Assembly: GCA_001792345.1 (NCBI GenBank)
Contig: MGGJ01000001.1
Span: forward strand, 153,710 to 217,709
DNA length: 64,000 bases
Direction: 5' to 3'
Source of the DNA: Candidatus Woesebacteria bacterium RIFCSPHIGHO2_01_FULL_39_32
Lineage (GTDB): Bacteria; Patescibacteriota; Microgenomatia; UBA8517
Part shown: positions 35,654 to 53,132 of the stretch, in pieces
Layout of the letters: every line of letters begins with the position of its first letter
How positions within the stretch are numbered: position 1 is the first letter of the stretch
The notes under the pieces: generated by a model
Database searches by the model: none
Seen by the model: only the letters and a program-made list of their open reading frames with translations
Told to the model about the DNA's origin: nothing
Made by a program: the position numbers and the translations under genes

Positions 35654-36037
35654 ATGAGAATATGTATAGACTTAGATGGGGTAATTTGTGAAGTAAGGAG
35701 GAAGAATCAATCATACGAGGATGTAAAACCCTTACCAGGAGCAATCGAAAAAATTCAAGAATTAAAAAGTAAAGGTCACTATATTATTATTTCTACCTCT
35801 CGGCACATGAAGACTACAGACGGCAATGTAAATAAAATATTAGCAAAAGTAGGAGAAATAACACTTACTTGGTTAAGAAAACATAAGATTCCATTTGACG
35901 AGATAAATTTTGGTAAACCTTACGCTCATATTTATATCGATGATAAAGCTGTTCGCTTTAGTGGATGGAAAAAAATAAGAGGAGATGGGGGTAACCTCCC
36001 TCTTAAAAAGGAAGATAAAGAGTTTAAAGTCAAATGA
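35654..36037 (+). CDS. HAD-superfamily-like small phosphatase
   Basis: Begins MRICIDLDGVIC (DxDG motif). 127 aa, downstream Lys and YIDD (motif IV-like). Confidence 0.4.
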   Translation: MRICIDLDGVICEVRRKNQSYEDVKPLPGAIEKIQELKSKGHYIIISTSRHMKTTDGNVNKILAKVGEITLTWLRKHKIPFDEINFGKPYAHIYIDDKAVRFSGWKKIRGDGGNLPLKKEDKEFKVK

Positions 36038-37797
36038 TAGTCGTAGGTTTTTACAAAGGACACAACGCGACAGCCTGTGTTCTTAAAGACGGAAAGATAT
36101 TAGCTAGCGCCAGCGAGGAACGTTTTGTACGGATAAAAAACGTTGATACTTTCCCAACGAACTCAATTAAATTTTGCCTCGATTTTATAGGCGCAAAAGT
36201 TGCCGATGTTGATCTTTTTGTTAGAACCTACAAACACGCTGAAGGCTTTGTTACTTCTAAGGGTAAAACAGTAATGACAAAACCACTAGAGTATCAAAGA
36301 TGGCTTGCAAAAACCTTTGATCGGTTACTCTTTTACTTACCGAGTTTAAATTCACTGACCAGAGAGACATATGCATACTTCTCAAAATTTCTTTTGACTC
36401 CTTACTATCAATCGAAATTTAGAACCAATATGGCCAACTTCCTGAAAGTGGATCCCCAAAAAATTATATTTGCAGATCATCACTCGTGCCACGCATATGC
36501 TCCGTATTATGGATTTATTACTAATGAAGAAAAGAAACAAGATTATTTAGTGATTACACTAGACGGGGAAGGAGACGAAGACTGCGGTGGCATTTGGCTT
36601 GTAAAATCCGGTAAGTGGGAAAAAATTGCAACTGTATCATATGGTGATTCTATCGCGGCATTTTACGGTTACATTACAAGTTACTTGGGAATGAAAATAA
36701 ATGAACACGAATATAAGGTTATGGGGTTAGCCCCTTATGTTTCCGAATACGAAATTAAAAAAGTATATCCAATATTTAAAGACCTTTTTTGGATAGATGA
36801 TAATCTTGTAATGCACTCAAAGATTCATTCCGGATCTTACCCCTATTATTTGGAGAAATATCTTAGGGGAATGCGTTTTGATGGCATTGCCGGCGCAGCA
36901 CAATTATTAGCAGAAAATGTTGCAATAGACCTTGTTAAAAAGGCAATACGAAAAACCGGTATCAAAAACATTATACTTTCCGGAGGGTTTTTCATGAATG
37001 TAAAGGTAAATCAAAAAATTGCGAAACTTTCAGAAGTAAAAAGATTGTTTGTCTGTCCATCAGCATCTGATGAATCGAGTGTATTCGGTGCTGCATATTT
37101 TGGCTTCAAATATCTTTGCAAAGAGAAAGGAATAAATTTCAGACCTGAAACCCTCGACAATTTATATCTTGGTCCTAATTTTGAAGACAAAGGATTGAAA
37201 AAGGCAATGATTAAAGCAAAGATATCAAAAAAATATAAAATTAATAAATATAAAAATATAGAAAAAGTTATCGCTGATCTTTTGGCTGAAGGTAAAATTG
37301 TCGGACGATTTACAGGACGTATGGAATGGGGAGCAAGAGCTTTAGGAAATAGATCAATTCTGATGGACCCGAGAAGTAAAGATAAAATTCGTGAACTTAA
37401 CGATCAGGTTAAATCAAGAGACTTTTGGATGCCTTTTGCAGCAACAATCATAGATGAATATAAAACCAAATATCTTAGAAATACTGATAAATCTGATGGT
37501 AGATTTATGGTAATGGCCTATGATACAACGGACCTTGGTAAGAAGAATTTAAGCGCGGCGATTCATCCATATGATGAGACTTGTAGACCGCAAATATTAA
37601 GTAGAATCGACAATCCTAAATACTATAAACTGATAAAATATTTTCAGGGCAAAACTGGCGTTGGTGCAGTTCTTAATACATCGTTCAATTACCATGGAGA
37701 ACCAATTGTTTGTACGCCGGACGATGCACTACATACATTTGAAGTTACAGGTTTAAAATATTTAGCATTGGAAAATTGCTTAATTGCCAAAGAATAA
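36034..37797 (+). CDS. NodU/CmcH-family carbamoyltransferase
   Basis: N-terminal ILGFYKGHNATACVLKDGKILASASEERFVRIKN is the ASKHA-like Carbam_trans_N signature. 587 aa, with a C-terminal YrdC/Kae1-like region. Confidence 0.75.
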   Translation: MIVVGFYKGHNATACVLKDGKILASASEERFVRIKNVDTFPTNSIKFCLDFIGAKVADVDLFVRTYKHAEGFVTSKGKTVMTKPLEYQRWLAKTFDRLLFYLPSLNSLTRETYAYFSKFLLTPYYQSKFRTNMANFLKVDPQKIIFADHHSCHAYAPYYGFITNEEKKQDYLVITLDGEGDEDCGGIWLVKSGKWEKIATVSYGDSIAAFYGYITSYLGMKINEHEYKVMGLAPYVSEYEIKKVYPIFKDLFWIDDNLVMHSKIHSGSYPYYLEKYLRGMRFDGIAGAAQLLAENVAIDLVKKAIRKTGIKNIILSGGFFMNVKVNQKIAKLSEVKRLFVCPSASDESSVFGAAYFGFKYLCKEKGINFRPETLDNLYLGPNFEDKGLKKAMIKAKISKKYKINKYKNIEKVIADLLAEGKIVGRFTGRMEWGARALGNRSILMDPRSKDKIRELNDQVKSRDFWMPFAATIIDEYKTKYLRNTDKSDGRFMVMAYDTTDLGKKNLSAAIHPYDETCRPQILSRIDNPKYYKLIKYFQGKTGVGAVLNTSFNYHGEPIVCTPDDALHTFEVTGLKYLALENCLIAKE

Positions 37798-37800
37798 AGT

Positions 37801-38883
37801 ATGAGACCATTAGTTTCATTGCTTATACTAACTTATAATAGGCCTGATCTTCTCAAGGCCTGTCTGAAAAGTGCCGTAGCATCAGATTATCCAAATCTCC
37901 AATTTATTATTTCCGATAACGGACAAATGGCGACAACACAGAATCTCATCAGGCGTGAATTTTCAGATGTTTTCGTAAAAGTTGTTTCTGCTGGCAGGAA
38001 TGTCGGTCTTACTGGTGGTTTTAATTACGGATTTAAATATTGTCGTGGTAAATATGTAATGCTTCTTTCCAACGATACAAAAATAGACAAAGGTGCGATT
38101 TCTAATATGGTGAATATGGTGGAAAAAGATAAGAAAATAGGCATCGTAGCACCAAAAGTAATACAGATGAAAAATAGTAATTATTTACACAGCGTTGGTA
38201 GTTTTTTTACTTATTCTGGAATTCTTTATCATTACGGTCTATCAAAAATCAAAAATAATCCGTTGTACGAGATACCCTATTACACCTTTAGTGCTAACGG
38301 TTCAGGGTTTATGATAAGACGGGATATCGTTAAAAAAACTGGGCTTTTTGAACAAGAATTTTTTGTTGCATATGATGAAAGCGATCTTTGTCATAGAGTC
38401 TGGCTTTCCGGACATACTATTGTCTATTGTCCAAAAGCAGAGCTTTTGCATCTTTGGGGTGCAACAATAGGGGGTACCGAAAAAGAAGAAAATCCGAAAG
38501 TATGGTTTCTCAATGATAGAAATAAAATAACTTCTTTTATAGTAAATCTTTCTTTAGCTAATTTATTGATTGTACTCGCTATTTTTAATAGCATTTTGAT
38601 TACGTGGTTTTTTGTAAATATTGTAAGAGGTAGAACTAAAACCGCAATCATGCTTCCCCAAGCCTATTGGTGGCACATAATTAATTTCAGAAAGACGCTC
38701 ATGAAAAGAAAGAAGGTTCAAACAAAAATTAGGAAAGTAAGTGACGAAGAAATATTTAAAAAGTGTATGCTAAATCCAAAAGTTAAGTATTATTATCTGC
38801 TTTACAGATATGGAGTAATAGAGGGACTAAAAAAATACAAAGATACTAAATTACCAGACAGGATATTATATTTATCCGAATGA
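37801..38883 (+). CDS. glycosyltransferase family 2 with C-terminal TM helices
   Basis: VSLLILTYNRPDLLKACL...FIISDNG; DES (DxD-like) motif; hydrophobic C-terminal segments. Confidence 0.7.
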   Translation: MRPLVSLLILTYNRPDLLKACLKSAVASDYPNLQFIISDNGQMATTQNLIRREFSDVFVKVVSAGRNVGLTGGFNYGFKYCRGKYVMLLSNDTKIDKGAISNMVNMVEKDKKIGIVAPKVIQMKNSNYLHSVGSFFTYSGILYHYGLSKIKNNPLYEIPYYTFSANGSGFMIRRDIVKKTGLFEQEFFVAYDESDLCHRVWLSGHTIVYCPKAELLHLWGATIGGTEKEENPKVWFLNDRNKITSFIVNLSLANLLIVLAIFNSILITWFFVNIVRGRTKTAIMLPQAYWWHIINFRKTLMKRKKVQTKIRKVSDEEIFKKCMLNPKVKYYYLLYRYGVIEGLKKYKDTKLPDRILYLSE

Positions 38884-41051
38884 AGCATTACCTAATTCTT
38901 TTTGTTATATGCATAAGCTTAGTTCTCATCTGGTTTAGTAAAGGCTTAATCTTTGCAGGAGGAGAAGAGGGCATGCCCTTTTATAATTTGGAGTTGACTT
39001 ACCGCAACTATTCCTATGTTTGGAAAGATGCCGAAGGGGGAATTAGTAATTATTCAGATATATTAAGAGTTCCTAGTTTTTATATTCTTCAAAAATTATC
39101 GAGCATTGGCCTATCCTCGGTTTTAATTCAAGGAACATTTTTTTTGGCTTTAATGCTAATTGGTACTTTCTCAGTATTTTTTTTATTACAGGAAACCGTA
39201 GTTAAGGGTGCTTTAAAAGTAACTAAAGATACACCGTCATACAAAGATATTTCCTTAATTGGGTCTATCTTCTATCTTCTTAACCCTTTTGCTATGACTC
39301 AAGTTTGGGGAAGGGGCCTTTATATGCAGTATTATCCCTTTGCACTTATACCACTTTTTTTGCTTTTGTTTATTTTAGCATTGAAAACAAGAAATCTAAT
39401 TTTTGTAAGTTTGGCATTAGTTTCTTCGTTTATATTGGCAGGATCTTATGGACATTTAAGTTATGTGATTTCGCTTTGGGGCATAATTTTTGCATATCTA
39501 ATTTACTTTTGTATAAATAATAAAAGTAAAGAAGAGAGAACATTTTCGGTTAAAATATTTTTGCTCTTTGTGGTTGGTTGGATTTTTACAAATCTTTGGT
39601 GGATAATGCCATTTTCTTCTTCAATCAACACTTTTGCCCAAAATTACAGCGACATAGAACATAGTTTGGGTACTTTAATTGGAAACAGTCGAGAAATTCC
39701 ATTAAACGGAGTTTTGAGGTTAATGCATAACGGATTTGTCTATAAATGGAAAATTTACGGGGAGTCTTATTTAAATTTATTTTTTAAACTCATAAGCTGG
39801 TTTATTCCAATTATTTCGCTTTTTGCATTAAGGTCCTGTAAGAATATAAAATCGCTGAACTTTTATTTAGTACTCTTTTTGATCACCTTGTTTATAAGTT
39901 TGGGTTCTAATCCGCCATTGGGATGGTTATTCATTATCTTATTTAAGGCAATACCTCAAATGGTTCTTTACAGAAATCCATTTGAAAAAATTGGTATTTT
40001 ACTTACAATCGCATATGCTCCTTTATTCGCAGTAGGACTTGTCGAACTTTCTAAATTCATATCCAATAAGTTGAAGAAAAGCTTAGATTTTTTAAGAATA
40101 ACTCATATTTCTAATTTATTTATTCTTATTTCAATGATTTTAATTTTTGGTATTCATGCGTGGCCTATGTGGAAAGGAGTTTTTGCTGGTGGATATGTAA
40201 CTAATGTATGGATTAATGTTCCCAAATATTACAAACAAGCAAATAATTGGTTAAACGAAGAAACTGGAGAATTTAATCTTATTCACTTTCCCTTAGCTCC
40301 TGGTGACGGCATGAAATTTATTTGGCCGAATTACTTTCAAGGCGTAGTACCTTATGATTTTTTGTTTGATCGACCTTCGATATCTAAAAACACTTTCTTT
40401 AATAAAATTTATTATAACGTGTTGCTAGAGAGATTTGGAAAACTTGAGAAAGGGGCGTTTGGACCAGATCCAGATATTTCAAATTCTCAACTGAAAACTA
40501 AAGATTTATATGAAGGTCTACAAAAACTAAACGTAAGATATATTTTACTTCATAAAGATGTAGATCCTGTTATTGGAAATTTGGGCGATTACAGGTTGTA
40601 CGAAGAGATTCTTAAGAAAGAGGAAAATATCACAAAAATAATTAACTTCGGAGAAATTGATATTTATGAGGTAACCCCGCCAGAGAAAGTTGATTTAATT
40701 TTTACAAGTCAGGGAAAAGTTGATTTCGAGAAAATAAATCCGACAGAATATGTTGCTACATTAAAGGGTGTTAAGAAAGACGATAAATTAGTTTTGTTAA
40801 CTTTATATGATCCGAACTGGAGTTTATATGTGAATGGTATGGTTGCGGCTGATCATAATCGTTATTTTTCTTGGGCTAACTCTTGGACTTTAGATAAGCT
40901 TGGTGATTATTCGGTAACTATTAAGTATAAACCGCAAGAAAATGTGCAAAAAGGTTTCAGAATTTCTATTTTCTTGTTGAGCCTTTTATTGTTTACGACA
41001 TTTATTTACAGATGGAAAGAGAGAAGCGATAAATTACCTAAAAATGTTTGA
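38880..41051 (+). CDS. giant polytopic membrane protein, GT-C-like (paralog A; AftD/YfhO-like by architecture)
   Basis: 723 aa with ~12 N-terminal TM helices, a soluble domain and a C-terminal TM. Shares the motifs AGGEEGMPFYN, GSNPPLGW and YRNPFEKIGI with the 49252 and 53286 proteins. Confidence 0.5.
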   Translation: MKHYLILFVICISLVLIWFSKGLIFAGGEEGMPFYNLELTYRNYSYVWKDAEGGISNYSDILRVPSFYILQKLSSIGLSSVLIQGTFFLALMLIGTFSVFFLLQETVVKGALKVTKDTPSYKDISLIGSIFYLLNPFAMTQVWGRGLYMQYYPFALIPLFLLLFILALKTRNLIFVSLALVSSFILAGSYGHLSYVISLWGIIFAYLIYFCINNKSKEERTFSVKIFLLFVVGWIFTNLWWIMPFSSSINTFAQNYSDIEHSLGTLIGNSREIPLNGVLRLMHNGFVYKWKIYGESYLNLFFKLISWFIPIISLFALRSCKNIKSLNFYLVLFLITLFISLGSNPPLGWLFIILFKAIPQMVLYRNPFEKIGILLTIAYAPLFAVGLVELSKFISNKLKKSLDFLRITHISNLFILISMILIFGIHAWPMWKGVFAGGYVTNVWINVPKYYKQANNWLNEETGEFNLIHFPLAPGDGMKFIWPNYFQGVVPYDFLFDRPSISKNTFFNKIYYNVLLERFGKLEKGAFGPDPDISNSQLKTKDLYEGLQKLNVRYILLHKDVDPVIGNLGDYRLYEEILKKEENITKIINFGEIDIYEVTPPEKVDLIFTSQGKVDFEKINPTEYVATLKGVKKDDKLVLLTLYDPNWSLYVNGMVAADHNRYFSWANSWTLDKLGDYSVTIKYKPQENVQKGFRISIFLLSLLLFTTFIYRWKERSDKLPKNV

Positions 41052-42303
41052 TATAAAACAAATCCGTATCTTTGCTCTAGCTGCTTATGGAAAAGGACTT
41101 TCTGGGGGAGATAGGATTTTTATTGAATTTGCCAGACGTTGGAGTAAAAATTTTCCTGTGGAAATTTATGTTTGGAAAGAAGGAGCCAAAATGTTGGAAA
41201 GACAACATCTGGGTATTTTCAATTCACAATTTTCACTTTTTAATGCAAATAAAGATTACCGAAATTTAAAAGTTCACGTTTCGAAATTAAAAAACCTATG
41301 TAAATTAGGATTCTTATTTTGCTACCTTACCAGAATTATTGAAGGAATTCGTTTAGGACTTTCTTTAAAACTAATCACCAATCACCAATCACCAATTACT
41401 ATATACTCTGCATCAGAATTTTGGATGGATTCACTCCCCGCTTTCATATTAAAACTCAGATATCCGAAGATAACTTGGGCCGCATCGTGGTATCAAACTG
41501 CTCCCAACCCATTTCATGGATATTTAGAAAATGGACAACGTAGAAATAAATATTTTTTTAGCAGTCTCTTCTATTGGCTAATGCAACTACCGATAAAGCC
41601 GCTTATTTCAAGCTTTGCTGACTATGTTTTAGTAAATAACGAGGAAGAACGAAAGCAATTTTCCGATTTGAACAAAAAGGGTAGAATGATAGTGGTTTTG
41701 GGCGCGGTTCCACTTGAAGAAATTAATAAATTTTTAATTACTAATTCCAAACTATTAACTACTAAAGAATATGACGCTGTCTTTCAAGGACGCTTACACG
41801 CGCAAAAGGGAGTGGTTGAATTAATCGACATTTGGAAAAAAGTGGTTGAGATAAAACCGTTAGCAAAATTGGCGATGATTGGAGATGGTCCCTTGATGGG
41901 AAAGGTAAAGAAACGAATAACTATGAATAAACTAACTAATAACATTAAAGTTTTTGGGTATGTTTTCGACGGGCCCAAAAAATATAAAATATTTTCCAAA
42001 AGTAAGATTGTCGTGCATCCCGCATTTTATGATTCAGGTGGAATGGCATCTGCAGAAGCAATGGCTTTTGGATTACCATGCGTCGGCTTTAACTTAAAAG
42101 CGTATAAATCTTATTATCCTCAGGGTATGGTTAAGGTAGATATTGGAAACACAAATGCTTTTGCAAAAAAAATAATGGAATTATTAGAAAATTATTCTTT
42201 GCGTATAAAAATAGGTAGAGAAGCTAAGTACATGATAGAAGAAAACTGGTCGTGGGAAAAAAGAGCTAACGAAGTTTTGGAACGAATAACTACAAATAAA
42301 TGA
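41044..42303 (+). CDS. glycosyltransferase family 4-like
   Basis: C-terminal HPAFYDSGGMASAEAMAFGLPCVGFN. Contains a 3x heptanucleotide repeat at 41374..41394. Confidence 0.6.
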   Translation: MFDIKQIRIFALAAYGKGLSGGDRIFIEFARRWSKNFPVEIYVWKEGAKMLERQHLGIFNSQFSLFNANKDYRNLKVHVSKLKNLCKLGFLFCYLTRIIEGIRLGLSLKLITNHQSPITIYSASEFWMDSLPAFILKLRYPKITWAASWYQTAPNPFHGYLENGQRRNKYFFSSLFYWLMQLPIKPLISSFADYVLVNNEEERKQFSDLNKKGRMIVVLGAVPLEEINKFLITNSKLLTTKEYDAVFQGRLHAQKGVVELIDIWKKVVEIKPLAKLAMIGDGPLMGKVKKRITMNKLTNNIKVFGYVFDGPKKYKIFSKSKIVVHPAFYDSGGMASAEAMAFGLPCVGFNLKAYKSYYPQGMVKVDIGNTNAFAKKIMELLENYSLRIKIGREAKYMIEENWSWEKRANEVLERITTNK

Positions 42304-43250
42304 GACGAATAAAACATTTTGTATCTATTACTGATTTAACTAAAAAAGAAATTAATCTTGTCCTTCAAATTTCCTCAAGTCTCAAAAGACAATTAAAGAA
42401 AAAAGGGAGCAACAAAGATTATTTAAAAAATAAAGTATTGGGAATGATTTTTGAAAAACCATCTCTGCGTACAAGAGTTTCATTTGAGGCAGGAATGACT
42501 CAAATGGGAGGACATGCAATTTATCTTGCGCCCGGGGATATTGATTTGGGTAAAAGAGAGCCTGTGAAAGATGTTTCTCAGGTTTTATCAAGGATGGTTG
42601 ATATTATTATGGCTCGAACTTTTCTTCATACTACCATAGAAGAGCTAGCTAAGTATTCAAGTGTTCCTGTTATTAATGCTTTGTCGGAACAAGAGCATCC
42701 TTGTCAGATTTTAGCTGATTTATTAACTATAAAAGAAAAGAAAGGAAAATTAAAAGGTATTAAGTTAGCATTTGTTGGTGATGGCGAAAATAATGTAACT
42801 CATTCTTTAGCTTTAGCCTCAGCAATTTTTGGAATGGATTTTCGGGTAGCAACACCTCCTGGTTTTGAAATGCAAAGCATCATTTTAGAAAAGGCAAAAG
42901 CAATTGCAAGTAAGAGCGGTGGACTAATTATAGAGACAGATAAACCCGAAGAAGCTGTAAAAGGAGTCGACATTGTCTACACAGATACATGGGTTTCTAT
43001 GGGTGATGAGTCTGAGAAAGACAAGCGTATAAAAGCTTTTAAAGGATATCAAGTAAACACTAGATTGATGAATTTTGCAAAAAAGGATGCAATATTTATG
43101 CATGATATGCCTGCCTATAGGGGTTATGAGGTTAGTGAAGAAGTTATTGAAGGAAAGCAATCTATAATAATCAATCAAGCAGAGAATAGACTACATGTTC
43201 AGAAGGGTTTGATTTGTTTTCTCCTACGTACTACCATCAATACATCATGA
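42300..43250 (+). CDS. divergent ornithine/aspartate carbamoyltransferase-family protein (OTCase-like fold)
   Basis: Collinear with OTCase: PSLRTRVSFE (canonical STRTR), HPCQ (HPTQ), DTWVSMG (DxxxSMG), FMHDMPA (canonical HCLP). 316 aa, translationally coupled inside the GT cluster. Confidence 0.65.
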   Translation: MRRIKHFVSITDLTKKEINLVLQISSSLKRQLKKKGSNKDYLKNKVLGMIFEKPSLRTRVSFEAGMTQMGGHAIYLAPGDIDLGKREPVKDVSQVLSRMVDIIMARTFLHTTIEELAKYSSVPVINALSEQEHPCQILADLLTIKEKKGKLKGIKLAFVGDGENNVTHSLALASAIFGMDFRVATPPGFEMQSIILEKAKAIASKSGGLIIETDKPEEAVKGVDIVYTDTWVSMGDESEKDKRIKAFKGYQVNTRLMNFAKKDAIFMHDMPAYRGYEVSEEVIEGKQSIIINQAENRLHVQKGLICFLLRTTINTS

Positions 43251-44866
43251 AACCTAAAAAACGGGGAGTTTCTACTGTCATTCCCAGTTTTAACAATTCT
43301 TTAAAATTATTTCGCCTTATCAATTCGCTGAAAAAAACAACCTATAGACCTCTCGAAGTAATTGTTGTAGATAATAGTTCAACCGAAGCCATGATAAAAC
43401 AGGGGAGGAAAAAATTCCCCTGGGTTAAATGGGTTGATGCTGGAAGAGAGAATGTCGGGCAAACAGGTTCATACAATCTAGGTTTCGCTCATGCAAATCC
43501 ACAAAACCACATTCTTTTTTGTGATGAGGACGTTGTGGTTGACCCTTCTATGGTGAGTAATCTAGTGAAGCGCGCGGAGACTAAAAAAAATATAGGTATA
43601 GTAACACCAATGATTTTGTATTTGGATGATAAAGAATGGGTAAATCAGGCCGGATCTGAAGTTAATCTTTTGACGGGGCAAGTAAAAATTGGCTGGGGTC
43701 CAAAAGAAGACTTTCTTGAGGCAAGAAAAGTGCAAGGTTCTGGAACAGTAATGCTTTTTAAGAGATCAGTTCTAGATAAGATTGGAGGCTTTGAGGATTG
43801 GTTTTTATGTTATTTTGACCCCGAGTATTGTGTTCGTGCACAAAAGGCGGGTTTTGAAAATTGGTATGAGCCTAAAGCTATTTGTTACCATGATCAACCC
43901 AAGGACGATAAGCTATGGCGCCCAAGAGTTTTATCACGCGCTTACTTGCTCGGTAAAAATAGAACATTGTTTATGAGAAAGCACGGAAATGTTTTTGTTT
44001 ATACACTTTTCTTACCGATTCTTTTGGGATACTACCTTATTGAAGGTATAAGATTTGGAATATTTAGCAAATGGGTTGAAATAGTTATAGGTTCAATTGC
44101 TGGATATTTTTCTCCAATTTCAAAAGGAAACTTTATTCCTTTACCAAGTTCTCATGGATTAAAAAATAAAATGAGTGGTAAAACTTTAAGTTTCATACAC
44201 ACGCCGTCCATTGATGCATTCTTGTCAAAATTTACCCTACATATACCCTTTTCTTATTTATGGTTATACAAGCATTCCCTAGGAGATTCGAATACAATAC
44301 TTGATGTTGGGTGCGGTGACGGTCTTCTTATGAAACGGCTATCCGAGGGAGAAAGTTGGGAGATTACAGGAATTGATATCTATCAAAAAGGCTTATCGAA
44401 AGCAAAGAAAAAAAAAGTCTACAAAGAACTTATAAAGGGAGATGTCGTGAAAGTTTGTAGTGACTTAGTTCGAAAAAAAAAGAAGTACGAGAGCGTTTTT
44501 TGTTCTCAAGTTATCGAGCACATAAACAGAAAGGAAGGGTTTGAGCTCCTAGCTGTAATGGATAAACTGGCAAGTAAAAGAGTGGTTGTTGCAACTCCGC
44601 GTGGATTTATGAATCAACCCGAGGTATTTATTGGAGGTAACCCCTACCAATATCACAAGTCTGGTTGGACCATTGAAGATTTCAAAAGCAGGGGGTTTAG
44701 GGTATATGGGCTGGGTTTAAAATTGAGTTGGTCTGAGAAGGGCTTAAGCAGAAGTAATAATAATCTAGTTGTAATATTATCTGTGATAACGTCATTCATT
44801 CTATCCCCTCTGGTTTATTATTTCCCAAACTTATCCGCAGGTGTTTTGTGTATTAGAGATAAATGA
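43214..44866 (+). CDS. fusion: GT2 glycosyltransferase + class-I SAM methyltransferase
   Basis: N-terminal VSTVIPSFNNS...VIVVDNSS and DED motif. Two TM helices follow. C-terminal ILDVGCGDGLLMKRL...VVVATP is MTase motifs I/post-I. Confidence 0.65.
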   Translation: MFSPTYYHQYIMKPKKRGVSTVIPSFNNSLKLFRLINSLKKTTYRPLEVIVVDNSSTEAMIKQGRKKFPWVKWVDAGRENVGQTGSYNLGFAHANPQNHILFCDEDVVVDPSMVSNLVKRAETKKNIGIVTPMILYLDDKEWVNQAGSEVNLLTGQVKIGWGPKEDFLEARKVQGSGTVMLFKRSVLDKIGGFEDWFLCYFDPEYCVRAQKAGFENWYEPKAICYHDQPKDDKLWRPRVLSRAYLLGKNRTLFMRKHGNVFVYTLFLPILLGYYLIEGIRFGIFSKWVEIVIGSIAGYFSPISKGNFIPLPSSHGLKNKMSGKTLSFIHTPSIDAFLSKFTLHIPFSYLWLYKHSLGDSNTILDVGCGDGLLMKRLSEGESWEITGIDIYQKGLSKAKKKKVYKELIKGDVVKVCSDLVRKKKKYESVFCSQVIEHINRKEGFELLAVMDKLASKRVVVATPRGFMNQPEVFIGGNPYQYHKSGWTIEDFKSRGFRVYGLGLKLSWSEKGLSRSNNNLVVILSVITSFILSPLVYYFPNLSAGVLCIRDK

Positions 44867-45807
44867 AAGAGAAGATTTCAGCAATCATAGTTACGATGAA
44901 TCGAAAGGAAGAATTAATTGAGTGCATTGATTCTTTGGTCGAATCGAAGTGTAATTTTTTTGAAATAATAGTTGTTGATAATGGCTCAATTGTTCCAACC
45001 TCGCGCTTTTTAAAAAGAAAGTACCCTAAACTGAAGATAATTCGAAGTGAAGAAAATGTTGGAGCGGCTGCAGGGAGAAATATTGGTATTAAGAATGCAA
45101 AAGGGAACTATTACTTTTTCATGGACGATGATGCAAGGATAGATAAAAATGCAATTTGCGAAATGCTCAAACTCTTTAAGTTTAAAAAGAGTATAGGGAT
45201 TGTACAACCAAAAGTTTATGATAAGGACAAACCCGACATTTTGCAGGGAGTTGGACATACGATTAATCTTTTAACTGGTCGGGCGAAAGCCTGGGGAGTA
45301 ATGGAAGAAGACAAGGGTCAGTACGATTTAGATCGAGAGATTCCCATGACAGGAGGAATATGTTTGGTTAAACGAAAAGTAATCGATGATATAGGGATGT
45401 TTGATGAAGATTATTTTATACCTTATGAAGACTCCGATTTATGCATCCGCGCAATAAAAGCTGGATATAAAGTTTATTGTTCAGGAAGTGCTAAGTCCTG
45501 GCATCAGGGCAAGAAACAAACTGCCGTTAACCCTCGGTTGGAATGGATGGGTGTAACTACTCCTGAAAGGGCATATCGAATAGCCAGAAACAAAATGATG
45601 TTTTTAAGAAAGCATGCGCCTCACTCCAAGTTAATGGTTTTTCTTATTTTCATTCTACCGTTCTACGCTATAGCCCATTCCGCTATTATTGTAAGTTCAA
45701 AAAGATGGGATATATTGAGTAGTTATTGGAAAGGTTTGTTTGCCGGCCTTTTATACTTTACAACTTATAGAGAAAAACCTACTTCTTTTTATATGTATTT
45801 GTTTTAA
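44863..45807 (+). CDS. glycosyltransferase family 2 (tandem paralog 1)
   Basis: ISAIIVTMNRKEELIECIDSL...IIVVDNGS; DDD. Paralogous to the N-domain of the downstream gene. Confidence 0.7.
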   Translation: MKEKISAIIVTMNRKEELIECIDSLVESKCNFFEIIVVDNGSIVPTSRFLKRKYPKLKIIRSEENVGAAAGRNIGIKNAKGNYYFFMDDDARIDKNAICEMLKLFKFKKSIGIVQPKVYDKDKPDILQGVGHTINLLTGRAKAWGVMEEDKGQYDLDREIPMTGGICLVKRKVIDDIGMFDEDYFIPYEDSDLCIRAIKAGYKVYCSGSAKSWHQGKKQTAVNPRLEWMGVTTPERAYRIARNKMMFLRKHAPHSKLMVFLIFILPFYAIAHSAIIVSSKRWDILSSYWKGLFAGLLYFTTYREKPTSFYMYLF

Positions 45808-45809
45808 CT

Positions 45810-48524
45810 ATGAGACAAACAAAGAGACAAACAAAAAAACCTTCAGTTTCAGTTGTCATTGTAACGAAAGACAGGAATGACGATCTGAAAGAGTGTATTT
45901 TATCTTTTACAAAATCTACATATCAACCTTTGGAGATAATTGTTGTTGATAATGGCTCGGAAAATCCTGTAGGTCCTCTGTTAAAAAAGAAATTTCCAAA
46001 GGTAAAGGTTATTGTGAATGGAGAAAATGTCGGGGCGGCCGAGGGAAGAAATATTGGGTTAAGGAGTTCAAAAGGAGAATTTATATTGTTTTCGGATGAC
46101 GACGCCATTGTGGGTAAGGACATGGTTTCTAATCTCGTTGACGTATTTAGTAGTAGAAAAGACGCAGGAATTGTTCAACCCGTTATTTTTGATAAGAAAA
46201 AAAGAAATATTTTCCAAGGCGCAGGACATGATATCAACTTCATAACAGGAAGAATTAAACCCTGGGGAATAGATATGTGGGGAAGAGGTGAAAAAAATAT
46301 TGGTCAATATAAGGGAATAAGGGAAGTGCCGATGTGCGGTTGTGTTTGGATGGTAAAACGAGAAGTTTTCGAGAAAATAGGGGAATACGATAAGGATTAT
46401 TTTATACCGTATGAAGATTCTGACTTATCTATTCGAGCAAAAAGGGCAGGATATAAACTTTATTGTAGTTACAACGCAAAAAGCTACCATCCCATTAATA
46501 AAAAAAGTACGTTGCCGCGTTTAATACAATTTTTGGGAATAACTTCAACAGAACGCGCCTTTCGGGTTTCAAGAAGCAAATTAATATTTATGAAAAAGCA
46601 CTCTCTCTTTCCTAATAATGTACTATTCTTTACCATTTTCCTCCCTTTGTTAATCTCTACTCATAGTTTGATGATATTACTATCTGGAAGATTAAATATA
46701 TTAGTCAGCTACTGGAAAGGTATTTTTTCAGGCTTTAATTATATTTTCAGTAACTTAAGTAAGCTGTCGAAATACACGATTCTATTATTAACAGCTCTAA
46801 TATTTACTTATCTTTCAGTCAGACCATCTTTTGATCTGGCAATCTTTGGTGATGACTGGATTGTATTTTATGGTTTGGATAATCGCAGCGACACGGGAGA
46901 TCTGCTCGACCCCACACTGATAAAAAATTATTTCGGCCCGTATGCACTACCTCATTTTATTATGGGTGCCATTCGGTCAATTTGGGGATACGAATCTTTT
47001 TATTATTATTTTATCTCCTTTCTGACACGCGCCTTTGCCGCCTTCAGCTTGGGTGCTCTGATGTTGTTTATTTCAAATAGTCTCTTGACAGCAGTTTTAA
47101 CTGGGGTACTTTTTGCCGTATCGACAGCTGGAATGGAAACTACGAACTGGGTTTTTAATATGACCACATATCTTGCAGTATCAATCTTTGCTTATAGTCT
47201 TATGGTATTATTTTCATCAAAAAATAATTCCAGAAAGTTTCTTCTTAGTACATTACTATTTCTTTTATCAATATTATTTTTTCCGCAACGCATGCATGGG
47301 GCGATACTCTTATATTCATTATTTATTGCCCTTCTATTTGTACAGAAACCTTCTTACCATAGCCTGTTATCGGTATTTATCAAATATGGCATTCTTGCTT
47401 TAGGGATACTTTTCCTTGCACGTTTGAATACATTTGGTGGTTCTGGAGATTGGAAGTGGTTTATGGGTGAAGTAGTAAAGGATATAAGGACACTTCCGTC
47501 GTATTCTTGGACAACTCTATTCGGGTCTATTACAAATCTTTATATACCTCATCATTTTTGGTCTAATCCCAGCTTGGTCCCATTATTAACATCTTTTTTG
47601 GGGGGTTCGACAGTATTACCTCGAATGAGATATATACTTGGATTTTTTCTTGCTGCTACCTTTTTTATTTCTTTAATAAAAAGAGATAGAAAGGTACTTT
47701 ATTTAATACTTAACGTTTTGTTTATAGCAATTTGGCACCTGTATTTTAAAAGATTGATAATTGATCAGACTTCCATTTATCATAATACTGCCACCATATT
47801 ACCTACCTACCTAGGAGCATTTGTTTTTAGTTGGATTTTTTTCCACCTAATAACGTTACGGAAAAATAGCAATAATTTCCTTGTTTTTGCCACTTTATTT
47901 TCTTTTCCATACTTATTTATTTTGGTTCCTTGGCTAAGAAGCAGATTCTCGATCATGGATACGCCATTTCGTTATATGCTGGTTCCGGCTACGGGCATGC
48001 CATTAATTTTTGGTCATATTCTTTGGAAAGCACAAAAGACAGCGAGGATTTTAATGATTCTATTTGTATTTGCTTTAGTATATTTGAATTACAACTATAC
48101 TCAAAAATACTTTAATAATTTGTTAGAGGTAAGGAATACGGTATTATATGACTCGTTGTGGAAACAGTTTGGTGAATTGACAATTGGCTTTAGGCCCTCG
48201 AAAGATTTTGCAGTTTTTTATTTCGAGGGGAATGGAGGAATAATTTATAATGTCTTTTCTTTCGGCTTTATGCCCAAACTCGCTGTTTTGCATAATATTT
48301 CTGAGGAAAATAAAGACTTTCTACCTCTTATCTACGATGACATAATGTTGACTGTAGAGGTGATGAATAAAGGCTATGGTCCAGGGAGGCCGGTGCCACC
48401 TGATAAATTCTATGCCTTCAGAATAGAGAATGGACAGCTTATTGATATTAAAAAAGACGTAATGCCAAAACTTAGATCTCTTGGATATTCGTATAATAAT
48501 AGTATGGAGATCCAAAAAGAGTAA
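45810..48524 (+). CDS. fusion: GT2 glycosyltransferase + large polytopic membrane domain
   Basis: N-terminal VSVVIVTKDRNDDLKECILSF...IIVVDNGS (GT2, ~300 aa). About 600 aa follow with many TM helices, GT-C-like. Confidence 0.6.
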   Translation: MRQTKRQTKKPSVSVVIVTKDRNDDLKECILSFTKSTYQPLEIIVVDNGSENPVGPLLKKKFPKVKVIVNGENVGAAEGRNIGLRSSKGEFILFSDDDAIVGKDMVSNLVDVFSSRKDAGIVQPVIFDKKKRNIFQGAGHDINFITGRIKPWGIDMWGRGEKNIGQYKGIREVPMCGCVWMVKREVFEKIGEYDKDYFIPYEDSDLSIRAKRAGYKLYCSYNAKSYHPINKKSTLPRLIQFLGITSTERAFRVSRSKLIFMKKHSLFPNNVLFFTIFLPLLISTHSLMILLSGRLNILVSYWKGIFSGFNYIFSNLSKLSKYTILLLTALIFTYLSVRPSFDLAIFGDDWIVFYGLDNRSDTGDLLDPTLIKNYFGPYALPHFIMGAIRSIWGYESFYYYFISFLTRAFAAFSLGALMLFISNSLLTAVLTGVLFAVSTAGMETTNWVFNMTTYLAVSIFAYSLMVLFSSKNNSRKFLLSTLLFLLSILFFPQRMHGAILLYSLFIALLFVQKPSYHSLLSVFIKYGILALGILFLARLNTFGGSGDWKWFMGEVVKDIRTLPSYSWTTLFGSITNLYIPHHFWSNPSLVPLLTSFLGGSTVLPRMRYILGFFLAATFFISLIKRDRKVLYLILNVLFIAIWHLYFKRLIIDQTSIYHNTATILPTYLGAFVFSWIFFHLITLRKNSNNFLVFATLFSFPYLFILVPWLRSRFSIMDTPFRYMLVPATGMPLIFGHILWKAQKTARILMILFVFALVYLNYNYTQKYFNNLLEVRNTVLYDSLWKQFGELTIGFRPSKDFAVFYFEGNGGIIYNVFSFGFMPKLAVLHNISEENKDFLPLIYDDIMLTVEVMNKGYGPGRPVPPDKFYAFRIENGQLIDIKKDVMPKLRSLGYSYNNSMEIQKE

Positions 48525-48527
48525 GTA

Positions 48528-49220
48528 ATGTATATGTTGAAATCAAAAAAATCATCACCTGGCACAAATTTTAATCATTACCTATTTACTCTGAAATTAT
48601 GGCTAGACTCACGCGTTGAACCAATATGTAGAGTTATCGATAAATCGGCCGAAAGTATTTTAGACGTAGGTTGTGGTCAAGGTTATCCGATGAGGCTCAT
48701 CAGATTAGTAATGGAACCGAAGAAAGTTGTAGGAGTTGACCTTTTTAACGAATATATTGAAGAAGCAAAATCCGCGCATTTACATGATAAGTATGTCATA
48801 TCAGATATTCGGAAGTTGAAATTTCCAAAAAAAAGTTTCGATGTCGTTCTTGCATCGCAAGTTATTGAACACTTGCCTAAAAAGGATGCAAGAAAATTTA
48901 TTAAAGATTTAGAGCGGATTGCAAAAAAGCAAGTAATTATTGCAACACCAATAGGGGAGATGTATCATCCTGCGGTAGATGATAATGAATTGCAACTTCA
49001 TTTATCAAATTACTATCCTGAATATTTTGAAAAGTTAGGATACAGGATTCTAAAATATGGTAGAAAATCTTTATTGGGGGACCACGGATTAGTTCATAAA
49101 ATTCCTAATGGGATATTGAGAAAATGCCTTTTTCTTTTCAATATTCTTATAAGTCCTTTCTATTATGTCTTCCAACCGATTGCGGATTATTATTTTGTGG
49201 CCTACAAGACGTTTAAATAA
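48528..49220 (+). CDS. class-I SAM-dependent methyltransferase
   Basis: ILDVGCGQGYPMRL; DVVLASQVIEHL; IIATP. Confidence 0.65.
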   Translation: MYMLKSKKSSPGTNFNHYLFTLKLWLDSRVEPICRVIDKSAESILDVGCGQGYPMRLIRLVMEPKKVVGVDLFNEYIEEAKSAHLHDKYVISDIRKLKFPKKSFDVVLASQVIEHLPKKDARKFIKDLERIAKKQVIIATPIGEMYHPAVDDNELQLHLSNYYPEYFEKLGYRILKYGRKSLLGDHGLVHKIPNGILRKCLFLFNILISPFYYVFQPIADYYFVAYKTFK

Positions 49221-49251
49221 ATTATTTTACCCATTTAGTAAATTCAAATAT

Positions 49252-52200: not shown

Positions 52201-52788
52201 ACTGTTGTTAATCCAGACCCGTCATCCGACACGATGACACTAATATTTAGCGCAATCCCTTGGAATAATTGTACAAAGATTTTTTACAAAAACCCAAAGA
52301 AATGTAGCGATGTTTCGATAAGTAAGACCTATGAAAGACCAACAAAGGTGGAAATTACAAATCTGCAAATCCACCCCAGATTTTCAAGAGAACTTTTTGT
52401 ACTAAGAGTCGATGCGGTAGATGAAAAAGTATCACCAAAAATTTCTTTTACTAAAAAGAGTCACACTCATTATAAAGTGGAGGTTCGTGATTCGGAGAAG
52501 CCCTTTGTTTTGGTCTTTTCTGAATTATTTGACAAGGGATGGAAACTTTACCTAAATGGCGATAGTAAGCGGTATCCCGAGAATAACCATTTTTTGGCCA
52601 ATAGTTATGCAAACGGTTGGTTAATAGAAAATGAGGGAGACTTTAATTTGGAACTTAAATTTGTGCCCGATAAATTTAAAGAAATGGGATTGTATTTATC
52701 CTTTTTCGTACTTGGGCTGATTTTTCTTATTACGCTGTTATTGTCCGTTAATGTTTTTTTGTCTAAAAGATTTAATAAAGGATTATGA
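49252..52788 (+). CDS. giant polytopic membrane protein, GT-C-like (paralog B)
   Basis: The ORF-track start of 49165 overlaps the upstream gene; Met30 (MNKKIFILLLL) at 49252 fits a signal/TM start. ~1180 aa. Motifs LGGGESGVPFYN, KGNSPPLGE, FRNPFEKLGI. C-terminal TM. Confidence 0.5.
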   Translation: MNKKIFILLLLSSVLLTTILFKDKTILGGGESGVPFYNITRMFKDSSSSWLDGLLGSYIPQSVANYPYLKIFSFLEVQGINGYVLQALFTFIALLISLVFFFLLTKEVFSNYPNSAYLFSSFFYLFNFYSAMNIWNRFLLNFLLFYSVLPMFLWLYMRFLRSRNFVYLGLFLMLSFIFSYAFSSPGHIMIFWFLLLFISLFELMKDKKKVAQVKNFVITLMLWLLVNFWWILQQAAYAISESFKSISTEYFSDVGNTIGFSFLSNVLGKFENLYLLKHGLFYNQEYDFILKWPLIYKKPLLLIVEWMASLYILYWAINNRKRLSVVFSLGLLLIGFILAKGNSPPLGEVFDFFFQRFSFVQFFRNPFEKLGIIPTMGFSLMIGPSLSDLAKKLSRQKPFLRVFIPLVSFTYIVVILGFPFWSGLVFTGSQAPLNDPEVGLRVEVPSYYKDADNWLSLEDKDTRFMTFPLGGEGIQYLWPKGYLGVEESAILFENANISSVLAFPYYDKIASNLQKLFTKNIDFYKIASLLNARYLLFRPDIEFKNSGMKDPAYIDNLFEERVSNEKANISFASQFGPLKFYKLDNKVTLPKIYAANNYVNGGSGADIEQFLLSGAEVGDVMYNSGWPVRNKLDANTSFYVSKNKAIFYLPGPQYPLFVDAPYIFPYVSHLPSSPIYSLLIIKENLQRNLYSDKESKLRWDLLTLGKRLIEVRNALSAGDEKGAIKSLQIYRKNLASVVSDIDLVSKSLKKPGEQVWNEKMLTEIFSSHLFLFNDFEKSTLNSDGSITDLKKQLLLSVSKLKILPYYYPIVSEDFPLESRVVYGVEIDSSGEYDVIFPKSIFFPEYFGINQRINIQIDDVVYSTQIGIDNNKVYFGKYYLSEGYHEISFNQFSKINLIDENLTSFELNSIHGEDSINIPIKTYDAYSQYEISFDYLIHYGNGPVLQVSLNNDKIIKKDGVETEQYYFEKYLPPDDYYFIKRPYSTVVNPDPSSDTMTLIFSAIPWNNCTKIFYKNPKKCSDVSISKTYERPTKVEITNLQIHPRFSRELFVLRVDAVDEKVSPKISFTKKSHTHYKVEVRDSEKPFVLVFSELFDKGWKLYLNGDSKRYPENNHFLANSYANGWLIENEGDFNLELKFVPDKFKEMGLYLSFFVLGLIFLITLLLSVNVFLSKRFNKGL

Positions 52789-53132
52789 AAAAAATACGTA
52801 GTTATAGATATCCCATTTTTATTTTTTCATTGTTTGTCCTAACTGTCCTTAATATAATAAAAATAGTTGCGCGATCAAGGTTTGCTGTAAATATATTTCC
52901 TAACCTACATTACTGGTTATGGACGATTATTCTAATAGAAGCTGTTTTTGTTTTTAACATTAAGATCAAAAATGTTTTAAAAATAGCTCTTGCTTTAACA
53001 GTAGTCGGGGGAGCTTTATCTATTTTTAGAATTGTTATTGCTGAAAATGTACTAAAATTCGGTTTTATATTGTGGATAGTGGGTTATCTTTTTAATCTTA
53101 TTGAGATTGTTAGAAAAAATGAAATTAATTAA
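52785..53132 (+). CDS. small membrane protein
   Basis: 115 aa with 3-4 TM helices. Translationally coupled. Confidence 0.35.
   Translation: MKKIRSYRYPIFIFSLFVLTVLNIIKIVARSRFAVNIFPNLHYWLWTIILIEAVFVFNIKIKNVLKIALALTVVGGALSIFRIVIAENVLKFGFILWIVGYLFNLIEIVRKNEIN

What the first reader, a model, noticed from the sequence alone, without database searches (positions are those of the whole stretch)
42300..43250. Divergent transcarbamylase (OTCase fold) with altered substrate motifs embedded between glycosyltransferases
The protein is collinear with ornithine carbamoyltransferase and keeps DxxxSMG and HP(C)Q. The universally conserved carbamoyl-phosphate motif STRTR reads SLRTR. The second-substrate HCLP motif reads HDMP. 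Its start and stop overlap the flanking GT4 and GT2-MTase genes, so it is co-translated with the glycan machinery rather than with arginine genes. It may carbamoylate an amino sugar or another non-ornithine acceptor, alongside the NodU-like O-carbamoyltransferase at 36034..37797.
Basis: seen in the sequence. Interest (0 to 1): 0.6.

Follow-up and report, generated by a model that had tools for sequence, protein, structure and literature searches.

The report
Ordinary ornithine carbamoyltransferase inside glycan operon
The gene encodes a normal-looking ornithine carbamoyltransferase whose "odd" motifs are lineage-wide traits also found in arginine operons, and the notable point is that Woesebacteria keep it inside a cell-surface glycan locus beside a carbamoyl-phosphate-using sugar O-carbamoyltransferase, perhaps to supply the carbamoyl donor.

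Summary
The sequence observation is correct: a 316-aa ORF (42300..43250, +) with SLRTR, HPCQ, DTWVSMG and HDMP, joined to GT4 and GT2-methyltransferase genes by ATGA overlaps. The inference of a new acceptor is not supported.

The protein scores 415 bits against NCBIfam's OTCase equivalog (cut-off 281). Its model (pLDDT 94.8) superposes on characterised OTCases (TM 0.93).

SLRTR occurs in 119 of 120 nearest relatives and in the solved Thermus OTCase (2ef0). HD[ML]P occurs in 103 of 120 and marks a large CPR/Dehalococcoidia/Acidobacteriota clade.

Orthologs with the same six active-site motifs sit in argH-argG-OTC clusters, in a complete LysW-type arginine operon, and upstream of pyrB. The window protein changes only 4 of 82 clade-invariant sites, all conservatively.

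The genuine feature is context. In at least four Woesebacteria-like lineages this OTC belongs to a conserved glycan module with a CmcH/NodU O-carbamoyltransferase, a GT-C enzyme and a flippase.

My best reading, which is inferred, is that the OTCase feeds carbamoyl phosphate from citrulline to the O-carbamoyltransferase. The rival is arginine housekeeping. The complete genome, which I could not scan, would decide.

The parts
42300..43250 (+). Ornithine carbamoyltransferase (OTCase) of the SLRTR/HD(M/L)P lineage. Key residues: K53, S55-L56-R57-T58-R59, R106, H133-P-C-Q136, N164-N165, D229, S233-M234-G235, H268-D269-M270-P271, R297.
   Evidence: (TIGR00658 414.7 bits against cut-off 280.85).
36034..37797 (+). 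CmcH/NodU-family O-carbamoyltransferase (Carbam_trans_N plus Carbam_trans_C), the proposed consumer of carbamoyl phosphate.
   Evidence: NovN 9s2t at 204 bits, plus GdmN and TobZ..
35654..36037 (+). Small HAD-like hydrolase (127 aa) whose stop overlaps the NodU-like start. First gene of the tightly packed string 35654..53132.
37801..38883 (+). GT2 glycosyltransferase between the NodU-like and GT-C genes.
38880..41051 (+). GT-C glycosyltransferase with an AftD-like (arabinofuranosyltransferase-type) N-terminal domain, 723 aa.
41044..42303 (+). GT4 glycosyltransferase whose stop overlaps the OTC start (ATGA).
43214..44866 (+). GT2 plus SAM-methyltransferase fusion. The likely start is the ATG at 43247, which overlaps the OTC stop (ATGA).
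49165..52788 (+). Large GT-C-like membrane protein (1207 aa). It is the counterpart of the 1079/1143-aa protein that follows NodU in L005 and L103.
   Evidence: 476 and 333 bits. No Pfam hit.
53286..56090 (+). 934-aa protein of unknown family, 48% identical to the 941-aa protein of the compact L005 module.
   Evidence: 882 bits. No Pfam hit.
56114..57415 (+). Polysaccharide flippase (Polysacc_synt), also the last gene of the compact module in L005.
20834..22225 (+). Methyltransferase-GT2 fusion (463 aa), 61% identical to the gene next to OTC in L005 and L103. It marks the other edge of the conserved module.

Best explanation
The gene encodes a genuine trimer-type ornithine carbamoyltransferase (ornithine + carbamoyl phosphate <-> citrulline + phosphate). 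SLRTR and HD(M/L)P are inherited traits of a large OTCase lineage and are not adaptations to a new acceptor. Leu56 contributes only its backbone to phosphate binding. Asp269 takes the place of the usual Cys next to the ornithine delta-nitrogen. In Woesebacteria the gene has become a stable member of a surface-glycan locus that also encodes a CmcH/NodU O-carbamoyltransferase, an enzyme that needs carbamoyl phosphate plus ATP. The most likely reason is shared carbamoyl-phosphate metabolism. The OTCase would run phosphorolytically (citrulline + Pi -> ornithine + CP), and the ATP-driven, irreversible O-carbamoyltransferase would pull the unfavourable reaction, as carbamate kinase does in the arginine deiminase pathway. 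Shown: family membership, intact active site, conserved linkage. Inferred: the direction of the reaction and the hand-over of CP. My confidence that it is an OTCase is about 0.9. My confidence in the CP-supply role is about 0.4-0.45.
For: OTCase identity: above both curated NCBIfam OTC cut-offs and below those of PTC, AOTC, ATC and YgeW. It scores 295 bits to P. furiosus OTCase. The AF2 model has pLDDT 94.8 and TM 0.93 to 1a1s and to ornithine-bound 8qeu. K53, DxxxSMG, HPxQ, SxRTR, R106 and R297 are all present (criteria from PMC3282769 and PMC6022934). Motifs as lineage traits: SLRTR 119/120 and HD[ML]P 103/120. 2ef0 has SLRTR. The Cys/Asp state changes only twice over 132 sequences. Orthologs with the same active-site motifs lie beside argH-argG, and a close HDLP ortholog lies inside a LysW-type arg operon. 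The protein is nested in an arg- and pyr-linked CPR clade with 87% bootstrap. It changes 4 of 82 invariant sites, all conservatively, within the 0-6 leave-one-out range. Coupling: OTC lies immediately upstream of NodU-like genes in L005/6, L009, L103 and L104/5. The same core module is spread over 20.8-57.4 kb in the window, with the OTC/NodU order swapped. Sibling CPR genomes place this OTC directly upstream of bona fide pyrB, another CP consumer, in pyr operons that show no carAB. CmcH/NodU enzymes use CP plus ATP, and catabolic transcarbamylases are an established CP source that needs a downstream pull (PMC6022934). No CPSase, carbamate kinase, arcA, argG or argH lies in the roughly 84 kb visible.
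Against: The direction is untested, and citrulline phosphorolysis is thermodynamically unfavourable. The commonest CPR context of this clade is argH-argG-OTC, which implies an anabolic role and therefore some other CP source in those relatives. No citrulline source (arcA or a transporter) was seen. Three close Woesebacteria-type lineages carry the OTC alone among unrelated genes. More distant NodU-like genes have no OTC nearby. The NodU-linked lineages are related to one another, so the linkage may reflect only one or two evolutionary events. No paper in the searched library describes such a coupling.
Confidence: 0.5

Rival explanations
1. It is a housekeeping anabolic OTCase that makes citrulline for arginine synthesis or salvage. 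Its place in the glycan operon is inherited synteny in a compact genome, with no functional link to the NodU-like enzyme.
For: Most CPR orthologs lie in argH-argG-OTC clusters. The best structural and sequence matches are anabolic OTCases. Stand-alone copies exist in close relatives. The NodU-linked lineages form one small clade with 54% bootstrap, so the linkage could stem from a single event.
Against: The linkage survived a rearrangement that swapped the OTC/NodU order and inserted about 20 kb of other genes. OTC is translationally coupled to glycosyltransferases on both sides. No argG or argH lies within about 84 kb. No Woesebacteria ArgG appeared among the 120 best CPR ArgG hits, although that search was saturated and is inconclusive.
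Confidence: 0.3
2. This is the first reader's reading: a neofunctionalised transcarbamylase that N-carbamoylates an amino sugar or another non-ornithine amine of the glycan.
For: It is embedded in the glycan operon. HDxP is otherwise known from the diaminopropionate and diaminobutyrate transcarbamylases (PMC6022934; PMC4581275). No HDxP-type OTCase has been solved among the closest-matching structures or, to my knowledge, characterised.
Against: The same active-site motifs occur in arg-operon orthologs. The residues that bind ornithine's alpha-amino and alpha-carboxylate groups are retained (D229, S233-M234, N164-N165, K53), whereas DPTCase and DBTCase replace the Asp of DxxxSMG. There is no excess change at invariant sites. 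The scores are above the OTC equivalog cut-off.
Confidence: 0.06
3. The OTCase acts as a carbamoyl-phosphate sink or buffer, or makes citrulline for another purpose. It would be co-expressed with the O-carbamoyltransferase to control a labile, protein-carbamoylating CP pool made by another enzyme.
For: Both enzymes use CP. CP is labile and reactive (PMC6022934). Co-expression follows from the operon structure.
Against: A sink would compete with the glycan enzyme for its substrate. No CP-making enzyme is visible. There is no precedent in the searched literature.
Confidence: 0.08

Closest known systems
Ornithine carbamoyltransferase (ArgF/ArcB, EC 2.1.3.3; NCBIfam TIGR00658 / NF001986), e.g. P. 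furiosus 1a1s, A. thaliana 8qeu, M. tuberculosis ArgF, T. thermophilus 2ef0
   Same: Two-domain fold with TM 0.93. 40-47% identity. SxRTR (SLRTR as in 2ef0), HPxQ, DxxxSMG, the Lys before the Ser, R106 and R297. Scores above the curated cut-offs. Orthologs in arginine operons.
   Different: Asp replaces the usual Cys in HCLP (HDMP). A one-residue Glu insertion gives GDG-E-NN. In this genome the gene lies in a glycan operon and not with arg or arc genes.
Catabolic OTCase of the arginine deiminase pathway (arcA-arcB-arcC)
   Same: The proposed direction (citrulline + Pi -> ornithine + CP) and the need for a downstream enzyme to pull the reaction.
   Different: No arcA or arcC is nearby. The proposed pulling enzyme is an ATP-dependent CmcH/NodU O-carbamoyltransferase rather than carbamate kinase, and the purpose would be biosynthetic rather than ATP generation.
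L-2,3-diaminopropionate and L-2,4-diaminobutyrate transcarbamylases (DPTCase, DBTCase)
   Same: OTCase-like sequence with SxRTR, HPxQ and an Asp in the HxLP motif (HDLP).
   Different: Those enzymes replace the Asp of DxxxSMG (TRWQSMG or (T/S)RWQTTG) and sit in antibiotic clusters. The window protein keeps DTWVSMG, and its orthologs sit in arginine operons.
Putrescine transcarbamylase (TIGR04384)
   Same: Close fold (TM 0.94 to 4a8p) and 344 bits to the model.
   Different: Below the 500-bit cut-off. It keeps Lys53 and VSMG instead of the PTC 230-loop signature, and it lacks the C-terminal helix extension.
CmcH/NodU O-carbamoyltransferases (TobZ, NovN, GdmN), for the partner gene at 36034..37797
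   Same: Full-length two-domain architecture and 176-204 bits to solved members. These enzymes use CP plus ATP via carbamoyl-adenylate.
   Different: The known members act in antibiotic or Nod-factor pathways. Here the gene lies in a CPR surface-glycan locus and is linked to an OTCase.

Membership tests
Ornithine carbamoyltransferase | OTCace_N plus OTCace two-domain fold | tested here: met
   Pfam E 1e-51 and 5.5e-61. AF2 pLDDT 94.8 and TM 0.93 to 1a1s and 8qeu.
Ornithine carbamoyltransferase | Score above the curated equivalog/subfamily cut-off and below those of sister families | tested here: met
   TIGR00658 414.7 against 280.85. NF001986 424.2 against 306. PTC 344 below 500, AOTC 190 below 288, ATC 179 below 237, YgeW 68 below 453.
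Ornithine carbamoyltransferase | Carbamoyl-phosphate motifs SxRTR and HPxQ | tested here: met
   SLRTR and HPCQ. The generic form is SxRTR (PMC6022934). SLRTR occurs in Thermus OTCase 2ef0.
Ornithine carbamoyltransferase | Ornithine motif DxxxSMG (SMG loop) | tested here: met
   D229-TWV-S233-M234-G235, invariant in alignment A1.
Ornithine carbamoyltransferase | Lys two residues before the Ser of SxRT, which pairs with ornithine's alpha-carboxylate and is absent in PTCases | tested here: met
   K53 in EKPSLRTR, invariant in A1. The criterion is from PMC3282769.
Ornithine carbamoyltransferase | HxLP-type motif at the delta-N site. Cys at position 2 is typical ('most OTCases'), not universal. 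| tested here: inconclusive
   The H..P frame is present (HDMP) but the Cys is replaced by Asp. The same Asp occurs in orthologs inside arginine operons. The review says Cys in 'most' OTCases (PMC4581275). I found no HDxP OTCase that has been solved among the closest matches or characterised.
Ornithine carbamoyltransferase | Genomic association with arginine genes | tested here: inconclusive
   Not met for this copy within about 84 kb. Met for many orthologs. The rest of the genome could not be scanned.
Ornithine carbamoyltransferase | Catalysis of ornithine + CP <-> citrulline + Pi | not testable with these tools
   Requires an enzyme assay.
DPTCase / DBTCase | Asp of DxxxSMG replaced by Thr or Ser (TRWQSMG or (T/S)RWQTTG), together with HDLP | tested here: not met
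   DTWVSMG is retained and only the HDxP half is shared.
Putrescine transcarbamylase | TIGR04384 cut-off, the 230-loop (Y/W)(G/W)(V/L/I)x in place of xSMG, no Lys before STRT, and a C-terminal helix extension | tested here: not met
   344 below 500 bits. VSMG and K53 are present. The protein is 316 aa with no roughly 20-residue extension.
Arginine deiminase (ADI) operon | arcA and arcC (carbamate kinase) adjacent to the OTC gene | tested here: not met
   No ADI or AA_kinase family gene in the window or in the 10 kb extensions on either side.
CmcH/NodU O-carbamoyltransferase (partner gene 36034..37797) | Kae1-like N-terminal plus YrdC-like C-terminal carbamoyltransferase domains, and homology to TobZ, NovN and GdmN | tested here: met
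   Carbam_trans_N E 2.4e-31 and Carbam_trans_C E 2.4e-58. 9s2t 204 bits, 7xb6 aligned over residues 7-586, TobZ 178 bits.

The most novel reading that the evidence does not exclude
In genome-reduced CPR bacteria this HDxP-type OTCase works mainly as a citrulline phosphorylase that stands in for carbamoyl-phosphate synthetase. It would feed CP to an ATP-driven CmcH/NodU O-carbamoyltransferase that carbamoylates a surface glycan in Woesebacteria, and to aspartate transcarbamylase in the pyr operons of sibling lineages. That would be a third physiological 'pull' on catabolic OTCase besides carbamate kinase, and it would make externally acquired citrulline or arginine the carbamoyl donor for cell-surface decoration.
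Probability: 0.35. Interest if true: 0.55.

Novelty: new member of a known kind. Interest (0 to 1): 0.3.

Why it matters
The result removes a false lead. SLRTR and HDMP do not flag a new transcarbamylase specificity, and motif-based screens for novel transcarbamylases should treat SxRTR and HD(M/L)P-with-DxxxSMG as ordinary OTCase variants. Two modest points remain. First, a large and apparently uncharacterised OTCase lineage (CPR, Dehalococcoidia, some Acidobacteriota) uses Asp where textbook OTCases use Cys, which bears on the debated role of that residue. Second, a conserved OTCase plus O-carbamoyltransferase plus GT-C glycan module in Woesebacteria suggests how organisms with minimal metabolism obtain the carbamoyl donor for surface-glycan decoration. 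This is testable with one genome scan and a coupled enzyme assay.

Tried and rejected
1. DPTCase/DBTCase membership, because of HDxP. Rejected: the Asp of DxxxSMG is retained and orthologs lie in arg operons.
2. PTCase. Rejected by score and signatures.
3. Pseudoenzyme or decaying copy. Rejected: all catalytic residues are present and only 4 of 82 invariant sites change, conservatively.
4. A LysW-ornithine transcarbamylase, an idea prompted by the Acidoferrales lysW operon. Not supported, because the alpha-amino-binding Asp229 is conserved. Not pursued.
5. NodU-anchored metagenome scan. It returned only distant homologs (28-41% identity), none with an OTC, so it says nothing about close orthologs.
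6. ArgG search to learn whether Woesebacteria have argG. The list saturated at 74% identity or more with other Microgenomates, so it was inconclusive.
7. Extending the window by 10 kb on each side. Only more glycan genes were found.
8. Cross-matching 'longest contig' lengths between the OTC and NodU hit lists. This recovered the known pair (28,827) and four possible extra pairs (12,321; 4,491; 17,821; 6,492). About one coincidence is expected by chance and I had no look-ups left, so I treat these as tentative.
9. Literature searches for SLRTR, HDLP, OTC plus O-carbamoyltransferase clusters, and CPR carbamoyl-phosphate metabolism. They yielded the motif reviews but nothing on HDxP OTCases or on an OTC-NodU coupling.
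10. Structure prediction. It confirms the fold, but the tools give no coordinates, so pocket geometry around Asp269 could not be examined.
Full report
OBSERVATION. The ORF is real and lies where stated: 42300..43250 on the + strand, 316 aa. It carries Pfam OTCace_N (E 1e-51) and OTCace (E 5.5e-61) domains. The motifs read SLRTR (55-59), HPCQ (133-136), DTWVSMG (229-235) and HDMP (268-271). Both gene junctions are ATGA overlaps. The GT4 stop at 42301-42303 overlaps the OTC ATG at 42300. The OTC stop at 43248-43250 overlaps an in-frame ATG at 43247 of the GT2-methyltransferase gene. The neighbours are a GT4 and a GT2 plus methyltransferase fusion, and 36034..37797 is a full-length Carbam_trans_N/C protein. 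The source is Candidatus Woesebacteria bacterium RIFCSPHIGHO2_01_FULL_39_32, where the protein is already annotated as ornithine carbamoyltransferase.

FAMILY. Against NCBIfam the protein scores 414.7 bits on the OTCase equivalog TIGR00658 (cut-off 280.85) and 424.2 on NF001986 (cut-off 306). It stays below the cut-offs for putrescine (344 against 500), N-acetylornithine (190 against 288), aspartate (179 against 237) and YgeW (68 against 453) transcarbamylases. Its best solved relatives are characterised OTCases, led by P. furiosus 1a1s at 295 bits. An AlphaFold2 model built on 32 homologs is confident (pLDDT 94.8, pTM 0.93). It superposes on P. furiosus OTCase (TM 0.93), ornithine-bound Arabidopsis OTCase (rmsd 1.3 A) and M. 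tuberculosis ArgF at 40-47% identity.

ARE THE MOTIFS DEVIANT? Among the 120 nearest database proteins, SLRTR occurs in 119, HPCQ in 120, and HDMP or HDLP in 103. The remaining 17 have HCLP. The solved Thermus thermophilus OTCase 2ef0 reads FEKPSLRTR with HCLP. The transcarbamylase reviews give the generic CP motif as SxRTR (PMC6022934). The second position of HxLP is described as Cys in 'most' OTCases. Asp is known there in the diaminopropionate and diaminobutyrate transcarbamylases, but those also replace the Asp of DxxxSMG (TRWQSMG), which the review calls the key discriminator (PMC4581275). The window protein keeps D229. It also keeps the two marks that separate OTCases from putrescine transcarbamylases: Lys two residues before the Ser (K53, the partner of ornithine's alpha-carboxylate) and the xSMG loop (PMC3282769). 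No OTCase among the best-matching solved structures carries HDxP.

WHAT THE RELATIVES DO. I collected 110 loci in all.
- The six active-site strings of the window protein (EKPSLRTR, HPCQ, GDGENNV, DTWVSMG, HDMP, ENRLH) recur unchanged in orthologs that sit directly after argH-argG (L008, L012). They recur nearly unchanged in about 13 further Roizman-, Gottesman- and Daviesbacteria-type loci.
- An Acidoferrales ortholog (62% identity, SLRTR/HDLP) lies in a complete LysW-type arginine operon: argH-OTC-lysW-lysX-argC-argB-argD-...-argG.
- SLRTR with HCLP characterises argD-adjacent Planctomycetota genes.
- SLRTR with HDMP characterises Dehalococcoidia genes on chromosomes of 2-4 Mb.
- In a neighbour-joining tree the window protein groups with the other NodU-linked copies (54% bootstrap), inside a CPR clade (87%) whose other members are arg- or pyr-linked.
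- Across 132 sequences the Cys/Asp state changes only twice.
- Of 82 positions invariant in 14 arg- or pyr-linked clade members, the window protein changes four, all conservatively (L69M, A93S, D130E, L244I). That is within the 0-6 range those sequences show against each other.
There is therefore no trace of neofunctionalisation.

WHAT IS SPECIAL: THE LOCUS. From about 8.8 kb to at least 61 kb the window is one glycan-biosynthesis island. It holds more than 20 glycosyltransferases, several methyltransferases, GT-C/PMT-type enzymes, two flippases and sugar-nucleotide enzymes. The island continues for 10 kb beyond both window ends. No arg, ADI, carbamate-kinase or CPSase gene is visible in these roughly 84 kb. 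The OTC gene lies in a string of twelve genes (35654..53132) separated by gaps of 4 bp or less, or by overlaps. This string begins with a HAD-like gene and the NodU-like carbamoyltransferase.

The association is conserved. In L005/L006 (Woesebacteria GW2011_GWA1_37_7), L009, L103 and L104/L105 the OTC ortholog (68-71% identity) is followed within 8-37 bp by a NodU-like gene and then by a 1079-1160-aa GT-C protein. The compact L005 module runs methyltransferase-GT2, OTC, NodU, GT-C, a small ORF, a 941-aa protein and a flippase. It maps gene for gene onto window genes at 20834, 42300, 36034, 49165, 52785, 53286 and 56114. In the window the same core is spread over 37 kb, with extra transferases inserted and the OTC/NodU order swapped. 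Three other close lineages carry the OTC alone among unrelated genes. More distant NodU-like genes have no OTC nearby. The NodU-like protein is a bona fide CmcH/NodU enzyme: NovN at 204 bits, plus GdmN and TobZ.

MECHANISM. The CmcH/NodU family uses carbamoyl phosphate and ATP, via carbamoyl-adenylate, to O-carbamoylate hydroxyl groups. Catabolic transcarbamylases are one of three established CP sources, but they need a downstream reaction to pull an unfavourable equilibrium (PMC6022934). I therefore propose that this OTCase provides CP by citrulline phosphorolysis, and that the ATP-driven O-carbamoyltransferase pulls the reaction and carbamoylates a sugar of the glycan.

Supporting context comes from sibling CPR genomes, where the same OTC sits directly upstream of bona fide pyrB (347 and 311 bits against a cut-off of 237). 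It heads pyr operons that show no carAB. This is an inference and nothing here shows the direction of the reaction. The strongest counter-argument is that the majority CPR context (argH-argG-OTC) implies anabolic use, and hence another CP source in those relatives. The main rival is thus a housekeeping OTCase whose position is inherited synteny. I rate OTCase identity at about 0.9, the CP-supply role at about 0.4-0.45, the housekeeping rival at about 0.3, and a new acceptor at about 0.06.

COMPARISON AND NOVELTY. The protein is a member of the OTCase family. The one typical feature it lacks is the Cys of HCLP. That Cys is not universal, and its replacement by Asp is shared with arg-operon orthologs. 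The protein is not a DPTCase or DBTCase, a PTCase, an AOTCase, an ATCase or a YgeW-type enzyme, and it is not part of an ADI operon. The new points are modest. One is an apparently uncharacterised Asp-type OTCase lineage. The other is a conserved OTCase plus O-carbamoyltransferase glycan module in Woesebacteria, for which I found no literature. I score overall interest at 0.3.

LIMITS. I could not scan the complete genome. The ArgG search was saturated by other Microgenomates and is uninformative for Woesebacteria. The contig-length cross-matches suggesting further OTC-NodU pairs are unverified. The trees are neighbour-joining with 100 bootstraps. The structure tools return no coordinates, so the geometry around Asp269 is not assessed.

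Noticed in passing
L003:10924-11907 (also next to the OTC gene in L004, L017, L020, L023): A second transcarbamylase paralog ('TC2', 327 aa) sits beside this OTC in several CPR genomes. It falls below every curated NCBIfam cut-off (OTC 256 against 306, AOTC 254 against 288, YgeW 226 against 453, PTC 223 against 500). It is an unclassified transcarbamylase and is more genuinely divergent than the window protein.
   Followed up: partly
L059, L072, L081, L083, L084, L086 (Verrucomicrobiota/Kiritimatiellae/Pontiellaceae) and L085: An OTC-like group with SLRTR and HPCQ (HPTQ in L085), in which DxxxSMG is replaced by DSWMSYH and HCLP by NCLP. Except in L085, it lies immediately downstream of a pyrB-like gene. 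It still scores above the OTC cut-off (L083: 355 bits) despite both second-substrate motifs being altered.
   Followed up: partly
L013-L017, L020, L023 (SLRTH); L022, L029, L058, L063, L078 (SLRTK): In several OTC orthologs, including arg-linked ones, the last Arg of SxRTR is His or Lys. The fifth motif position is therefore also variable in this lineage.
   Followed up: no
L001:8481-17686 (Acidoferrales MAG): A complete carrier-protein (LysW/LysX) type arginine operon with argH, an HDLP-type OTC, lysW, lysX, argC, argB, argD, an unannotated 220-aa ORF and argG. No LysK-like peptidase is visible in the cluster.
   Followed up: no
window 1480-3027 (+): A fusion of a vitamin K epoxide reductase (VKOR) membrane domain with dihydroorotate dehydrogenase (DHO_dh), 515 aa. 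It suggests a quinone-linked PyrD and at least part of a pyrimidine pathway, another carbamoyl-phosphate-dependent route, in this genome.
   Followed up: no
window 25912-27249 (-) with 38880-41051 (+) and 49165-52788 (+): A homolog of plant 'reversibly glycosylated polypeptide' / UDP-arabinopyranose mutase (PF03214, 73 bits) lies in the same island as AftD-like GT-C arabinofuranosyltransferase-type proteins. This hints that the glycan contains arabinofuranose.
   Followed up: no
window 8801-61184, extended by L109 and L110: A very large glycan island of at least 70 kb, which is big for a genome likely near 1 Mb. It has more than 20 glycosyltransferases, at least 7 methyltransferase domains, several PMT_2/GT-C enzymes and two flippases. 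It also has large ORFs without any Pfam hit: 13189-15213 (674 aa), 28028-29965 (645 aa), 49165-52788 (1207 aa) and 53286-56090 (934 aa).
   Followed up: partly
window 635-1318 (-): An IS200/Y1-type transposase homolog (227 aa) lies between unrelated housekeeping genes and just upstream of the PyrD-VKOR gene.
   Followed up: no
window 33190-34842 (+): A 550-aa fusion of a sugar nucleotidyltransferase domain with a weak APH-type kinase domain, followed by a second nucleotidyltransferase (34844-35605) and a HAD-like phosphatase (35654-36037). It looks like a sugar-activation cassette directly upstream of the NodU-like gene.
   Followed up: no
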